Positions 7,201 through 12,234 of a DNA stretch of 64,000 bases are shown here, in pieces (position 1 is the stretch's first letter; each line of letters begins with the position of its first letter). Source of the stretch: the human T2T-CHM13v2.0 reference genome, Homo sapiens; NCBI RefSeq assembly GCF_009914755.1, contig NC_060926.1; one strand, given 5' to 3'. Under the pieces are notes generated by a model that saw only the letters and a list, made by a program, of their open reading frames with translations, did not search any database and was not told the origin of the DNA. The translations under genes were made by a program, and so were the position numbers.

Positions 7201-7558
7201 GACAAATGGTATCTAATTAAACTAAAGAGCTTCTGCACAGCAAAAGAAACTATCAACAGGATAAACAGACAACCTACAAAATGGGAGAAAATTTTTGCAG
7301 TCTATGCATCTGAAAAAGGTCTAATATCCAGCATCTATAAGGAACTTAAACAAATTTACAAGAAAAGAACAAACAACCCCATTAAAAAGTGGGCAAAGGA
7401 CATGAACAGATACTTCACAAAAGAAGACATACATCCTGTCAACAAACATATGAGAAAAAAGCCCAACATCACTAATCATTAGAGAAATGCAAATAAAAAC
7501 TACAATGAAATATCACCTCACAGCAGTCAGAATGGCTATTACTAAAAAGTCAGAAAAC
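4222..7558 (+). pseudogene. L1 ORF2p (endonuclease/RT) pseudogene; continues at about 10061-10515
   Basis: ORF fragments [16 protein letters not shown] (RT FADD-like motif) and [17 protein letters not shown]; many stops and frameshifts. Confidence 0.9.
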
Positions 7559-7671
7559 TCGTCATCTAGCATTAGGTATATCTCCCAATGCTATCCCTCC
7601 CCCCTCCCCCTTCCCCACCGCAGTCCCCAGAGTGTGATGTTCCCCTTCCTGTGTCCATGTGATCTCATTGT

Positions 7672-8961
7672 TCAATTCCCACCTATGAGTGAGAATATGC
7701 GGTGTTTGGTTTTTTGTTCTTGCGATAGTTTACTGAGAACGATGGTTTCCAATTTCATCCATGTCCCTACAAAGGACATGAACTCATCATTTTTTATGGC
7801 TGCATAGTATTCCATGGTGTATATGTGCCACATTTTCTTAATCCAGTCTATCATCGTTGGACATTTGGGTTGGTTCCAAGTCTTTGCTATTGTGAATAAT
7901 GCCGCAATAAACATATGTGTGCATGTGTCTTTATAGCAGCATGATTTATAGTCATTTGGGTATATACCCAGTAATGGGATGGCTGGGTCAAATGGTATTT
8001 CTAGTTCTAGATCCCTGAGGAATCGCCACACTGACTTCCACAATGGTTGAACTAGTTTACAGTCCCACCAACAGTGTAAAAGTGTTCCTATTTCTCCACA
8101 TCCTCTCCAGCACCTGTTGTTTCCTGACTTTTTAATGATTGCCATTCTTACTGGTGTGAGATGATATCTCATAGTGGTTTTGATTTGCATTTCTCTGATG
8201 GCCAGTGATGACGAGCATTTTTTCATGTGTTTTTTGGCTGCATAAATGTCTTCTTTTGAGAAGTGTCTGTTCATGTCCCTCGCCCACTTTTTGATGGGGT
8301 TGTTTGTTTTTTTCTTGTAAATTTGTTTGAGTTCATTGTAGATTCTGGATATTAGCCCTTTGTCAGATGAGTAGGTTGCAAAAATTTTCTCCCATGTTGT
8401 AGGTTGCCTGTTCACTCTGATGGTAGTTTCTTTTGCTGTGCAGAAGCTCTTTAGTTTAATTAGATCCCATTTGTCAATTTTGGCTTTTGTTGCCATTGCT
8501 TTTGGTGTTTTGGACATGAAGTCCTTGCCCACGCCTATGTCCTGAATGGTAATGCCTAGGTTTTCTTCTAGGGTTTTTACGGTTTTAGGTCTAACGTTTA
8601 AATCTTTAATCCATCTTGAATTGATTTTTGTATAAGGTGTAAGGAAGGGATCCAGTTTCAGCTTTCTACATATGGCTAGCCAGTTTTCCCAGCACCATTT
8701 ATTAAATAGGGAATCCTTTCCCCATTGCTTGTTTTTCTCAGGTTTGTCAAAGATCAGATAGTTGTAGGTATGCAGCGTTATTTCTGAGGGCTCTGTTCTG
8801 TTCCATTGATCTATATCTCTGTTTTGGTACCAGTACCATGCTGTTTTGGTTACTGTAGCCTTGTAGTATAGTTTGAAGTCAGGTAGTTTGATGCCTCCAG
8901 CTTTGTTCTTTCCAGCATGGCACATGTATACATATGTAACTAACCTGCACAATGTGCACAT
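7672..8961 (-). CDS. Chimeric 429-aa ORF: ~17 aa from antisense L1 3'UTR fused to an uninterrupted ORF2p C-terminal region (no EN or RT catalytic core); expression unknown
   Basis: KNKAGG...[18 protein letters not shown] (CCHC motif)...RIFSLIGGN* with no internal stop. Confidence 0.4.
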
Positions 8962-8985
8962 GTACCCTAAAACTTAAAGTATAAT

Positions 8986-9034
8986 TTAAAATAATAATAA
9001 TAATAATAATAATAATAGTAATAATAATAAAATA
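8986..9034 (+). repeat. (TAA)n tail of the source L1
   Basis: ataataataa repeat directly after the L1 3' end. Confidence 0.85.
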
Positions 9035-10053
9035 GCTCTGTGGACTCTGAAAAAATAAAATAAAGTGGAAACTCTAGTTCAATTCTTTTTATCCTCATTT
9101 CTCATGTAGAAATTTAACAAAACTGTGGAAGTAAAGTATTTGCAAATATTGAAGAATCTATAGTATGGCATAGTTTTTTGAGAAATGGACTCCTTAAAGT
9201 TCTTTAGAGACAAGTTCTCGTCTTGTTTTTATTTAATATTTTCAGTCATGGTGCAATTATGGAATAAAGAATACTCTTATTTTTGTTTTGAATTTTCAAG
9301 TGAGTGGAATGTTTTTTCAATAGCTCGTAAATATGAATTAAAATTAAATTGTGAGTTCAATATGAGTTGAATTTATTAAATTTCAAAGGTTTCTTGTAGA
9401 GTGGTTCATTTAGATGAGTAAATAGAGAGAGTGGTATACTGACAATATCACAATTGCGTTTGCTGTCAGGACAACCTAACCCAGATTCTCAGTCCATGAC
9501 ATAGCATGCAAATGTCATGCTAACACTCAGATACGAACACATAGCCAATCCTACATCAATGCTATCCTATTCCTGGATAGCATCGTGCCATAAGGAACCA
9601 GTTTGCAGGACTCATCATTGAAGTTTGGCATTTCAGAAGAGAAAGATTAATGCCTTCCTTTTTTTATATAAAACAACAGCCTTATAGATTTCCATCTAAA
9701 AATAATTTCTTCATCAAATATATTCTAAAAAAATTTTTGCTTACTGCTTATAGCTCCCTCTTGAGTATTCAAATATATACTAACATATTAACAGCTCTGA
9801 GAAGTCATATTGCAAAACCAACTCTTTAACTTTACTTAACCAGCATTGCCCAAATCTCTTTGACCACAGAGCATTTTCATGGTGTGTTTCAGTTATTAAC
9901 TCTATGGTATACTATTTGGGAAATATTGTCTCTCAATTGTTTAAGTCATTTATGCAAGTGTATGGAATAGTATGATTTTCATTATAAGCCTACATTTAGA
10001 ACAATGTTTTTGTATTGTAATATCTTAATTTGAATAAAGGAACCAGTACAATT
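9035..10053 (+). other. L1 3'-transduced genomic segment
   Basis: Non-L1 sequence between the L1 tail and a second poly(A)+TSD; AATAAA at 10033-10038, 15 nt before the A-run. Confidence 0.85.
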
Positions 10054-12234
10054 AAAAAAAAAAAAGTCAGAAAACAACAGATGCTGGTGAGTTTGTGGAG
10101 AAAAAGGAATGCTTCTACACTGTTGATGGATGTGTAAGCTAGTTCAACCATTTTAAAATACAGTGTAGTAATTCCTCAAAGATCCAGAGGCAGAATACTA
10201 TTTGATTCAGCAATGCCATTATTGGGTATATACCCAAAGAAATATAAATTGTTCTATTATAAAGACAACATGCATTTGAATGCTCATTGCAGCACTATTC
10301 ACAATAGCAAAGAAGTAGAATCAACCTAAATGCTCATAAATGATACACTAGATAAAGAAAATGTGGTACATATACATCATGGAATACTATACAGCCATAA
10401 AAGGATTGAAATCATATTGTTTGCAGGGGCATGGATGGAGCTGGAGGCCATAATTCTTAGCAAACTAACACAGGAACAGAGAGCCTGTTCTCACTTAAAA
10501 GTGAGAGCTAAATTATGAGAACACATGGACACATGCTGGGGAAAAACACACACTGGGACTTGTCAGAGGGTTGGGGGTGGAAGAAGGGAAAGGATTAGGG
10601 AGAATATTAATAGCTAGTGGATTCTGAAATTAATACCTAGGTGATGGGAAGATCTGTGCAGAAAACCACCATGGCACATGTTTACCTATAACAAACCTGC
10701 ACATATACCCCTGAATGTAAAATAAAAGTTGGAAATAGAAGATAAAAAATAAATTAAAAGATAAAAATATCTAGTTTTTATTTTACAACCTTCTTTACCC
10801 TATGTAACTCTCATTTAGGTTAGCACTGAAAAACTGTAAAACAAACCAAAATAAAAACATATAATAAAGCCTACAAAATCTTGAAATTCAGCTGACTGTA
10901 TGAAACCAAGTTACTTAGTTTGAAAATTTGGAGATGGCTCCATTTCTTATTGATATCTGTTTTCCTCAATTGTCCTTTCTAAAAATATTTACATTTATTT
11001 TTGATGTTACCAATATTCCTGTATTACTACTTAAATTTCAATGCCTTCAGTAAGATTGCTTGAGAGTTCCACTGCAAGAAAACTCATCTCTTTCTTTATG
11101 AAACCAAACTACATTTGGATCGTGTTTGATTCCTAACAGTGTTTTTAAAAGTAGTTTACCTAGCTGGAGCTGACACCTGTCTATATTGTGCAGTTTGAAG
11201 GATATAAGAAAAGATTTTCCACAAAGAAAAAAAGACTGCTTTTGATATAATCTCAGAAATTATGCCATCAGTGATTTCTTCACTTTGTATTAAGTATTAT
11301 GCTCTGCGGACCCTATTTTGAACTGAAAAAAAAAAAATAATTATTTTGCAATTGGTATGAATTCACTGTTTTGCTCAGAACAGGAAGACTCTAAACTGGA
11401 TGAAAGTACTGCTGCATACCAGGGGAGGGAACAAAAATGCATACCAGGGGAGGGAAGAAATGGAATTTAATTTGGGTACCAAAAGAAGGTTCCAGATCAT
11501 TAGATACAATTCTCTCCATTTTACAAACAAGGCAAATAAGAAGGAGGGAGGTGATTTGCTTTAGCTCATATGTTTGTCCTGCCACATGCTCAGCAGACAT
11601 TGCTTTCATGGGTAAGTCTCTGTTTTTTGTAATCACCCCAAATCCTAAACAAGCTGTCCAAAATAAGAGTTTTAATGTACGGACACTGTTGTCAATTTCG
11701 CCTTACCTCCCAGGTCCAGCATTTAAAAAATATTTTTAAAATATCAAATAATAACAGAAAAACACATCAGTTTAATTTTCTCTGGTACCATAATTCCTGT
11801 CAATCAGGTACTTCTACTTCCCTTTGAATGGACTCATTTATTCCTAAACTATGACTACCACTATCTGCTACTTTTCCTTTTGTCTAACTTATTTTTATCT
11901 TCAAAGCATCCTTATAGTAAAGTCATTGGTAAATATAAAGGAGCCACTGCCCTGTTGGCTACAATCCTGCTGCCGTATTCCCTAGCACCTAAAGAATTGT
12001 TGTGGCTGTTTTCATTATCTTTCATCTCTGCTGAAAGTGAAAGTAGGAGGGGAGAGAAGAGATGGTTCCATCACAGGCTCCACTTCAAAAGAGCCTTGAT
12101 CATGAAAGGAGGTGAGAGCCACATGAGTTGACTTTCTCTTCTAGCACACAATTATCTTAACATTAAGTAATTTACTTTGTAATTATTATGAAATCTTACA
12201 GCCTCTAAAACTAGGAACACTCTTAACATGAACA

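What the first reader, a model, noticed from the sequence alone, without database searches (positions are those of the whole stretch)
7544..10075. L1PA2-type insertion carrying a ~1 kb 3' transduction, nested inside an older L1
Seen: the host L1 ORF2 breaks at aaaaagtcagaaaac (7544-7558) and resumes at an identical 15-mer (10061-10075). Between them lie young L1 sequence, its (TAA)n tail, ~1 kb of non-L1 DNA, AATAAA (10033-10038) and an A-run. Established: this is the hallmark of L1 3' transduction by read-through of the weak L1 poly(A) signal. Inference: 9035-10053 was copied from another locus and tags the source element. A repeat annotator would leave it as unique DNA.
Basis: partly seen in the sequence, partly recalled or inferred. 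Interest (0 to 1): 0.8.

Follow-up and report, generated by a model that had tools for sequence, protein, structure and literature searches.

The report
Inverted L1 with two stacked transductions
This is one ordinary young L1 jumping-gene insertion inside an older L1, but it carries two successive pieces of foreign flanking DNA (from chr16 and chr4) that record its parent and grandparent, and no L1 lies at either source site in this genome.

Summary
The 15-mer AAAAAGTCAGAAAAC is exact at 7544-7558 and 10061-10075, and the host L1 ORF2 is colinear across it.

- **Inversion.** 7559-8911 is young L1 in antisense. Its minus strand encodes ORF2p residues 864-1275. Only 8912-~8987 is sense. This is a twin-priming 5' inversion with 15-18 nt lost at the breakpoint.
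- **The (TAA)n is not the L1's own tail.** With the 17-nt tag at 9033-9049 it matches an Alu tail plus flank at chr16:72.69 Mb. The same tag ends 5 other L1 copies.
- **The kilobase comes from chr4.** 9061-10053 is 99% identical to chr4:95,265,365-95,266,357, which runs on past the poly(A) site. A sibling insertion lies at chr2:181.06 Mb.

So this is a serial 3' transduction. No young L1 lies at either source site in CHM13.

All parts of the mechanism are textbook, and serial transductions are in print. This is a new member of a known kind, of modest interest. Ape orthologues could not be checked.

The parts
7544..7558 (+). 5' target-site duplication, AAAAAGTCAGAAAAC, in host L1 ORF2. The implied bottom-strand nick is CTTTTT/AG.
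   Evidence: Exact repeat of 10061-10075. Sequence read.
7559..8911 (-). Inverted 5' segment of the young L1: the last 412 codons of ORF2, the stop codon, and the start of the 3'UTR. The alignment also covers 7556-7558 (AAC), a 3-nt overlap with the TSD.
   Evidence: antisense match to a full-length lineage copy (chr7) at positions 6831-5476, with 18 mismatches in 1356 and no gap; minus strand 7675-8910 matches LINE-1 ORF2p residues 864-1275 of 1275, E 1.9e-284; a 433-aa stop-to-stop frame on the minus strand, 7672-8973, running past the breakpoint.
8912..8987 (+). Sense 3' terminal piece of the same L1 3'UTR. It starts 15 nt downstream of where the inverted piece ends, so 15-18 nt are lost at the inversion breakpoint. 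The join is blunt.
   Evidence: 8912-9060 matches chr7 copy 6847-6983, sense. (junction sequences).
8988..9049 (+). First-level (older) 3' transduction: an A-run, (TAA)n-TAG-(TAA)3-A and the tag TAGCTCTGTGGACTCTG, copied from an Alu tail plus flank at chr16:72.69 Mb. AATAAA lies at 9026-9031, and cleavage is 18 nt later.
   Evidence: the same 26/27-mer at 5 other L1 3' ends, plus chr16. (at chr16 it follows an Alu and runs on without an A-run). (alignment).
9050..9060 (+). [quoted passage not shown]
   Evidence: and the alignment. It lies between the tag and the first base shared with chr4.
9061..10055 (+). Second-level 3' transduction: unique DNA copied from chr4:95,265,365-95,266,357 (tested to 10053). 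Read, identity with chr4 can run two bases further, to 10055. AATAAA lies at 10033-10038, and cleavage is 15-17 nt later.
   Evidence: 99% over query 22-1014. (chr4 continues past the poly(A) site). (three-way alignment).
10056..10060 (+). Terminal poly(A). It is short: 5-7 A outside the TSD, and the A-run 10054-10065 merges with the five A's of the TSD.
10061..10075 (+). 3' target-site duplication. Host L1 ORF2 resumes at 10076.

Best explanation
One L1 retrotransposition event by target-primed reverse transcription put a 2.5 kb copy into an A-rich site of an older L1's ORF2.

The template RNA was a read-through transcript of a parent L1 that (inferred) lay at chr4:95.265 Mb. That parent already carried, behind its 3'UTR, about 60 nt picked up one generation earlier from an Alu tail and flank at chr16:72.69 Mb. 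The AATAAA of that (TAA)nAAA microsatellite had set the earlier poly(A) site.

This time transcription ran through both signals for a further 993-995 nt of chr4 DNA, to an AATAAA there. First-strand cDNA was primed on the poly(A) at the bottom-strand nick (TTTTT/AG) and copied the chr4 DNA, the chr16 tag and about 76 nt of L1 3'UTR. The nicked top strand (3'-...AAC) annealed inside the same RNA at GUU and primed a second cDNA of 1.35 kb running the other way (twin priming). Joining the two cDNAs left the 5' part inverted, with 15-18 nt lost.

Shown: the anatomy, both parental loci, the sibling and cousin copies, and the independent poly(A) sites. Inferred: that L1s once lay at the chr4 and chr16 sites and have since been lost, or are absent from this haplotype.

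The copy is dead on arrival and has no function of its own.
For: - **TSD and host.** The TSD is exact and non-random, and the host is colinear across it.
- **Inversion.** The inverted piece is 98.7% identical to a full-length lineage copy and encodes ORF2p 864-1275 on the minus strand. The two L1 pieces abut in L1 coordinates with a 15-nt gap.
- **chr4 origin.** chr4 matches 9061-10053 at 99% and continues past the cleavage site with no A-run.
- **Sibling.** A second insertion at chr2:181.06 Mb has its own 10-nt TSD, an A14 tail, a 58-nt inverted L1 ORF2 piece and the same chr4 DNA from base 107. It was cleaved 4-5 nt earlier than the window copy. The two offspring share 6 of 6 sites at which chr4 differs from them.
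- **chr16 origin.** The chr16-derived tag plus an A-run ends 5 other L1 copies, 3 of them full length with TSDs. At chr16 the same (TAA)n-TAG...tag follows an Alu and runs on into unique DNA.
- **Parallel case.** The chr3:106.8 Mb copy carries a 24-nt second tag whose origin, chr3:102,812,978, is unique DNA beginning at a perfect TTTT/AAAA site.
- **Literature.** The definitions of 3' transduction, serial transduction and twin priming match (passages read in PMC4859970; PMC2837659).
Against: - No young L1 lies at either parental site in this assembly. At chr4 there is none in 10 kb upstream or 22 kb downstream. At chr16 there is none in 7.7 kb upstream or 1.2 kb downstream. The defining 'source L1 directly upstream' was therefore not seen.
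- The first base of the chr4-derived DNA falls within about 7-10 nt of the end of an old L1 fragment at chr4. 37 of 37 old-L1 relatives stop before it. Identity drops from 77-84% to 42-51% across it, and the residual similarity is not significant, with 377 of 2000 shuffles as good. This is an unexplained coincidence for a random insertion site.
- The terminal poly(A) is only 5-7 nt outside the TSD.
- The 3-nt microhomology at the left junction is weak evidence on its own.
- The sibling's 58-nt L1 piece could also come from a second RNA (dual priming), so it does not by itself prove an L1-chr4 co-transcript.
Confidence: 0.85

Rival explanations
1. Template-switch chimera. L1 reverse transcriptase started on the poly(A) of an independent chr4 transcript and copied it to its 5' end at chr4:95,265,365. 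It then jumped to the poly(A) tail of a tag-bearing L1 RNA. In this reading no L1 ever sat at chr4.
For: chr4 has no L1 in CHM13. The left edge of the copied DNA coincides with an older repeat boundary rather than lying in featureless DNA. The sibling at chr2:181 Mb could be a retrocopy of the same transcript, with an L1 piece added by dual priming.
Against: - It needs two independent events joining L1 to the same rare transcript.
- The two offspring share 6 variants against the chr4 allele.
- Two other L1 + A-run + flank junctions in this lineage have L1-free origins, and the copied flanks are too short to be free transcripts: 17 nt from chr16, and 24 nt from chr3, which starts at a perfect TTTT/AAAA nick site.
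- The chimeras named in the review passages are a U6 snRNA joined to an L1 3' end, the opposite order (passages).
Confidence: 0.08
2. Two separate insertions: an antisense L1 fragment and, beside it, a sense L1 3' end with its transduction.
For: The two pieces are in opposite orientation.
Against: A single TSD pair encloses both pieces. There is no T-run at the left end of the antisense piece. The pieces are adjacent in L1 coordinates, 15 nt apart. The host L1 shows no second duplication or gap.
Confidence: 0.03
3. DNA-level copying (segmental duplication or gene conversion) of the chr4 kilobase into chr2.
For: 99% identity.
Against: The copy ends 15-17 nt after an AATAAA in an A-run and is enclosed by a TSD. 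The sibling copy ends at a different cleavage site with its own A14 tail and TSD. The chr4 sequence beyond the poly(A) site is not copied.
Confidence: 0.01

Closest known systems
L1 3' transduction (Moran 1999; Goodier 2000; Pickeral 2000, as cited in PMC4859970; passages read)
   Same: Non-L1 DNA lies between the L1 3' end and the terminal poly(A), inside the TSDs. There is an internal A-rich stretch. An AATAAA lies 15-17 nt before the tail. The parental locus runs on past the cleavage site.
   Different: The source L1 itself is not present at the parental locus in CHM13.
Serial 3' transductions used to trace L1 lineages (stated in PMC4859970, ref 246; passage read)
   Same: Two flanks from two loci are stacked in order (chr16, then chr4). 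Other copies carry only the first tag.
   Different: The first tag is mostly an Alu-tail (TAA)n microsatellite whose AATAAA set the poly(A) site. Both of this element's source sites, and a third for a cousin copy, hold no L1.
Twin-priming 5' inversion (Ostertag and Kazazian 2001, recalled; model as described in PMC2837659, passages read)
   Same: TSDs bound two inverted fragments of one L1. The inverted one lies upstream in L1 coordinates. There is a small internal deletion and a short overlap at the TSD junction.
   Different: Nothing of note. The non-inverted cDNA is mostly transduced DNA, with only about 76 nt of L1.
Orphan 3' transduction (e.g. Solyom 2012, listed in Table 1 of PMC4859970; passage read)
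   Same: The sibling at chr2:181.06 Mb is nearly orphan: 5'-truncated inside the transduced DNA.
   Different: The sibling keeps a 58-nt inverted ORF2 piece. The window copy is a partnered transduction, not an orphan.

Membership tests
L1 TPRT insertion | Target-site duplication of 4-20 bp bounding the insert | tested here: met
   15-mer exact at both ends; 0 of 100 shuffles reached the count. Five of the 15 are A's that merge with the tail, so the TSD is 10-15 nt.
L1 TPRT insertion | Endonuclease nick site resembling 5'-TTTT/AA-3' on the bottom strand | tested here: met
   The target reads tact|AAAAAG, so the bottom strand is CTTTTT/AG (read). The consensus is quoted.
L1 TPRT insertion | L1 sequence and a 3' poly(A) | tested here: met
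   ORF2p residues 864-1275, E 1.9e-284. 98.7% identity to a full-length copy. The A-run 10054-10065 is short.
3' transduction | Non-L1 DNA between the L1 3' end and the terminal poly(A), with a second, internal A stretch | tested here: met
   internal AAAAAATAAAA at 9050-9060, and unique DNA at 9061-10055.
3' transduction | Poly(A) signal 10-30 nt upstream of the end of the transduced DNA | tested here: met
   AATAAA at 10033-10038, with cleavage at 10053-10055. For the first tag, AATAAA at 9026-9031 with cleavage at 9049.
3' transduction | A parental locus holding the same DNA and continuing beyond the cleavage site | tested here: met
   chr4:95,265,365-95,266,357, 99%. chr16:72,686,682 for the first tag.
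3' transduction | Full-length source L1 directly upstream of that DNA at the parental locus | tested here: not met
   No young L1 within 10 kb upstream or 22 kb downstream at chr4, or within 7.7 kb upstream at chr16, in CHM13. Other haplotypes and apes could not be searched. This leaves the mechanism inferred, not disproved.
3' transduction | The source element's 3' TSD at the start of the transduced DNA | not testable with these tools
   This needs the filled allele.
Twin-priming 5' inversion | One TSD pair bounding two oppositely oriented fragments of the same L1, with the inverted fragment upstream in L1 coordinates | tested here: met
   Inverted piece matches chr7-copy positions 5476-6831. 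Sense piece starts at 6847.
Twin-priming 5' inversion | Small deletion or duplication at the breakpoint | tested here: met
   15 nt are missing (6832-6846), or 18 if the AAC overlap is counted to the TSD.
Twin-priming 5' inversion | Microhomology between the top-strand overhang and the internal priming site | tested here: inconclusive
   3 nt (AAC) at 7556-7558. The sibling also has a 3-nt overlap (TGG). Three nt is within chance.
Serial 3' transduction | Two flanks from different loci in series, and relatives that carry the inner one only | tested here: met
   The chr16 tag is followed by chr4 DNA. Of the 5 other copies with the chr16 tag, none carries the chr4 kilobase, and 2 (chr6, chr7) run from the tag's A-run straight into their TSD. 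The other 3 show further short pieces.
L1PA2 subfamily | Diagnostic positions against a curated subfamily consensus (RepeatMasker/Dfam) | not testable with these tools
   No repeat library is on hand. Four of the 5 other lineage copies read GACGAG where the Ta subfamily has ACA (the diagnostic is recalled). Private differences of 0.4-1.25% per copy and 97.7-98.2% pairwise identity are compatible with L1PA2 (ages recalled).

The most novel reading that the evidence does not exclude
The element is a fossil pedigree of extinct source elements. Three inferred progenitor L1s lay at chr16:72.69 Mb, chr4:95.27 Mb and, for a cousin copy, chr3:102.81 Mb. Together they left at least 7 descendants, yet no L1 lies at any of the three sites in CHM13. 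That would mean the productive L1s of this lineage were transient alleles that never fixed, and only the tags in their offspring record where they sat. In addition, the lineage's working 3' end and poly(A) signal were rebuilt from an Alu-tail microsatellite and then inherited through at least two generations of full-length copies.
Probability: 0.55. Interest if true: 0.45.

Novelty: new member of a known kind. Interest (0 to 1): 0.3.

Why it matters
The case has three practical uses:
- It explains an unmasked kilobase at chr2:81.353 Mb that looks like unique DNA. It is a retro-copied paralogue of chr4 DNA, with a third copy at chr2:181.06 Mb. This matters for read mapping and for orthology calls.
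- It gives a worked example of how stacked transduction tags rebuild an L1 family tree across at least 8 loci.
- It locates three source sites that hold no L1 in this genome. This bears on the long-held view that L1 amplification runs through short-lived, unfixed 'hot' alleles.

None of the mechanisms is new.

Tried and rejected
- **Pfam scan** of the 412-aa minus-strand translation gave 0 families. The first attempt failed on frame. The PDB sequence search then identified it.
- **Does the old L1 at chr4 run on through the junction,** which would make it a plain empty site? Alignment to the young L1 gave a score of 56, with 25 of 2000 shuffles as good. But 1 of 16 unrelated pieces of the kilobase scored the same and two more came close. 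Against 3 old-L1 relatives, 377 of 2000 shuffles were as good. Rejected: the old L1 ends there.
- **L1 similarity anywhere in the kilobase?** The best local score of 32 lies below the shuffle mean of 34.9.
- **Does the rest of that old L1 resume downstream?** Only one fragment was found 16 kb away. Uninformative.
- **Do the window copy and the chr3:106.8 Mb copy share body variants,** which would mean a common T-interrupted-tail parent? None in 132 nt.
- **Is the tag in print?** The tag 15-mer was found in 0 papers.
- **Not available:** Szak 2003, Pickeral 2000, the paper behind PMC311219 (which I take, from recall, to be Ostertag and Kazazian 2001) and Macfarlane 2013 are not held. Whether this lineage is listed there or in their supplements is unknown.
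Full report
**Observation.**
- The 15-mer AAAAAGTCAGAAAAC occurs exactly at 7544-7558 and 10061-10075. A one-mismatch copy lies on the minus strand at 8119-8133. The chance expectation is 0.02 matches, and 0 of 100 shuffles gave three.
- The host L1 is colinear across the insert. Insert 8119-8910 aligns to host 7558-6770 on the opposite strand (85.0%, 793 nt). Insert 7581-8133 aligns to host 10603-10061 (75.0%, 556 nt). Both host flanks therefore meet at the same 15 nt of L1.
- The (TAA)n run, the AATAAA at 10033-10038 and the A-run at 10054-10065 are all there.
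- Within the window, 9035-10060 matches nothing but itself. NCBI's mask leaves 9073-10344 unmasked (hub note).

**Anatomy: the L1 part is inverted.**
- Window 7556-8911 matches full-length relatives in antisense. Against the chr7 copy (positions 6831-5476) there are 18 mismatches in 1356 and no gap. Against the chr13 copy there are 21 mismatches, and against the chr6 copy 30.
- The minus strand carries a 433-aa stop-to-stop frame (7672-8973). Its 412 L1 codons, up to the breakpoint, match residues 864-1275 of the 1275-residue human LINE-1 ORF2 protein (8uw3_A, E 1.9e-284).
- Only 8912-~8987 is sense L1. It starts at chr7-copy position 6847, 15 nt beyond where the inverted piece ends (6831). 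The inner join is blunt.
- The last three bases of the left TSD (AAC) also match the L1 at the priming point.
- One TSD pair, two opposed pieces of one L1, the upstream piece inverted, and a small deletion: this is the twin-priming architecture as described in PMC2837659 (passages) and PMC4859970 (passages).

**Origin of the kilobase.** A search of the window's own assembly with 9040-10053 found 4 places:
- The window itself.
- chr4:95,265,365-95,266,357, 99% identical over query 22-1014.
- chr2:181,063,857-181,064,756, 99% identical over query 107-1012.
- An 88-nt, 77% match at chr2:174.27 Mb, which I set aside as a probable old repeat scrap.

At chr4 the sequence runs on past the cleavage site (...CAATTAAGTTGTGTG...) with no A-run, so chr4 is the parental locus.

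The chr2:181 Mb copy is an independent sibling:
- It has its own TSD (GAAAATTTGG) and an A14 tail.
- It carries a 58-nt antisense piece of L1 ORF2, 100% identical to the chr7 copy at positions 3334-3277.
- The chr4 DNA begins at its base 107.
- It was cleaved after GTACAA, 4-5 nt upstream of the window copy's site (CAATT(AA)).

In the roughly 890 columns shared by all three copies, the differences fall as follows:

| Pattern | Count |
|---|---|
| The two offspring agree against chr4 | 6 sites, all transitions |
| Private to the window copy | 2 substitutions |
| Private to the sibling | 2 substitutions, 3 small deletions |

**Origin of the (TAA)n run and the odd 17 nt behind it.** Between the L1 3'UTR and the chr4 DNA lie (TAA)n-TAG-(TAA)3-A, then TAGCTCTGTGGACTCTG (9033-9049), then AAAAAATAAAA (9050-9060).
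- A 26-mer (tag plus A-run, up to 2 mismatches) and a 27-mer (TAA repeats plus tag) each found the same 5 other loci: chr3:106.80 Mb, chr4:139.54 Mb, chr6:99.60 Mb, chr7:135.21 Mb and chr13:35.23 Mb. The reversed-pattern controls gave 0 hits.
- All five are L1 3' ends followed by an A-run.
- The chr6, chr7 and chr13 copies are full length (6.03-6.06 kb from the 5' end to the tag) with TSDs.
- The chr3 copy is short and itself 5'-inverted. The chr4:139.5 Mb copy keeps about 60 nt of L1.
- The 27-mer found one more place, chr16:72,686,682. There the same (TAA)n-TAGTAG-TAATAATAAA-ATAGCTCTGTGGACTCTG follows the 3' end of an Alu, the second of two tandem Alus. It runs on as ATAATGCTTTCGC with no A-run.
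- So chr16 is the origin. The '(TAA)n tail' is an Alu-tail microsatellite. Its AATAAA (window 9026-9031) lies 18 nt before the point where every descendant starts its A-run.

The window element therefore carries two stacked transductions, chr16 first and chr4 second.

**The source sites hold no L1.** BLAST with a full-length lineage copy gave these results:
- **chr4:** in 10 kb upstream and 22 kb downstream of the site, only two L1 matches appeared. One is an old fragment (63.5% identity) ending just before the site. The other is a fragment 16 kb downstream at 73% identity.
- **chr16:** nothing appeared in 7.7 kb upstream and 1.2 kb downstream except the 61-nt tail match.
- **A parallel case in a cousin copy:** the chr3:106.8 Mb copy carries, behind tag and tail (A8TA4TA4TA4), a further 24 nt and a second A10. 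Those 24 nt occur, with one mismatch, at chr3:102,812,978 in unique DNA. They run on without an A-run and start at ...TTGTTTT|AAAAGGAG, a perfect TTTT/AA nick site. No L1 is seen in the 361 bases read there, and neither tag pattern hit that locus.

So no L1 lies at any of the 3 inferable progenitor sites in CHM13.

**An unexplained detail.**
- The old L1 fragment at chr4 ends within about 7-10 nt of the first transduced base. 37 of 37 old-L1 relatives stop at or before query position 194, with the junction at 201.
- Identity to three relatives is 77-84% before the junction and 42-51% after it. The residual similarity is not significant, with 377 of 2000 shuffles as good.
- The causes I can offer are chance, re-use of an old endonuclease target, or a CHM13 allele that is not a simple empty site.

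**Mechanism.**
- *Shown:* the TSD; the nick-site match (CTTTTT/AG, read; consensus); the two poly(A) signals at the right distance; the two parental loci; and independent cleavage in the sibling.
- *Inferred:* an L1 landed in the Alu tail at chr16 and read through to the microsatellite's poly(A) site, founding a tagged lineage. One tagged copy landed at chr4:95.265 Mb and read through about 1 kb at least twice. One of those RNAs was integrated here by twin priming.

**Age.**
- In the 1356-nt inverted piece, all 43 variable columns among four copies are private to a single copy: window 13, chr6 17, chr13 8 and chr7 5. This is a star-like family.
- The full-length copies are 97.7-98.2% identical pairwise.
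- The window copy has 2 private substitutions in about 890 nt of transduced DNA. At recalled human rates of 0.5-1 x 10^-9 per site per year this is a few million years, with very wide Poisson error. I cannot place it relative to the human-chimpanzee split.
- 'L1PA2' is compatible with these numbers and with GACGAG at the recalled Ta-diagnostic site in 4 of the 5 other copies. It was not tested against a curated library.

**Rivals.**
- A template-switch chimera (an independent chr4 transcript joined to L1 RNA) would also leave chr4 without an L1, and it would fit the boundary coincidence. But it needs two separate joinings of L1 to one rare transcript. It also fails for the 17-nt and 24-nt tags in the same lineage. 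I give it 0.08.
- Two separate insertions (0.03) and DNA-level duplication (0.01) conflict with the single TSD pair, the adjacent L1 coordinates, the A-runs and the differing cleavage sites.

**Comparison with what is known.**
- 3' transduction, serial transduction, orphan transduction, 5' inversion with small indels and twin priming are all described (PMC4859970, passages; PMC2837659, passages).
- Short transductions under 100 bp are reported as common and easily missed (PMC13009371, passages).
- The tag 15-mer is in none of the searchable papers. The genome-wide transduction catalogues (Szak 2003, Pickeral 2000, Macfarlane 2013) are not held, so prior listing of this lineage cannot be excluded.

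**Verdict.** This is a real, correctly spotted 3' transduction, richer than described because it is inverted and serial, with source sites that hold no L1. It is mechanistically ordinary: a new member of a known kind.

**Not done.** Ape orthologues, other human haplotypes and RepeatMasker classification could not be examined, because no tool here holds them.

Noticed in passing
L006/L020 (G000:C3:106,800,361-106,800,444) and L031 (G000:C3:102,812,978): A cousin L1 copy with the chr16 tag carries a second-level 24-nt transduction. Its origin on chr3:102.81 Mb is unique DNA starting at a perfect TTTT/AAAA site, with no L1 seen there. The AATAAA that set its poly(A) site lies in the parent's T-interrupted tail, about 24 nt upstream.
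   Followed up: partly
L023 (G000:C13:35,227,2xx-35,227,735, minus strand): The full-length chr13 copy has GATGGTAGAGACC plus A19 between its first A-run and its TSD (AAAATTTTA[C/G]AGAG). This is probably another short second-level transduction. It is too short to trace.
   Followed up: no
L007 (G000:C4:139,535,0xx-139,535,141, minus strand): A copy with only about 60 nt of L1 plus the chr16 tag. After A10 comes a 34-nt Alu-internal piece. It sits in the same A-rich ORF2 stretch of another old L1 as the window insert does.
   Followed up: no
L002 1473-1500 (G000:C4:95,265,337-95,265,364): An old L1 fragment that lacks its 3' part ends within about 7-10 nt of the first base of the transduced kilobase. 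This is an unexplained coincidence for the lost progenitor's insertion point.
   Followed up: yes
window 9050-9060 and L006 tail: Both inferred second-generation parents had T-interrupted tails (A6TA4 and A8TA4TA4TA4). Their descendants share no body variants in 132 nt, so common descent of the tails is not supported.
   Followed up: partly
window 13430-15248: Another L1 lies on the minus strand, at the start of a run of masked stretches (13402-18977). It is 90% identical to the inserted L1 over 1350 nt and 83% identical to the host L1.
   Followed up: no
window 9768-9855: 88 nt of the transduced kilobase match chr2:174.27 Mb at 77%. This is probably an ancient repeat scrap inside the 'unique' DNA.
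   Followed up: no
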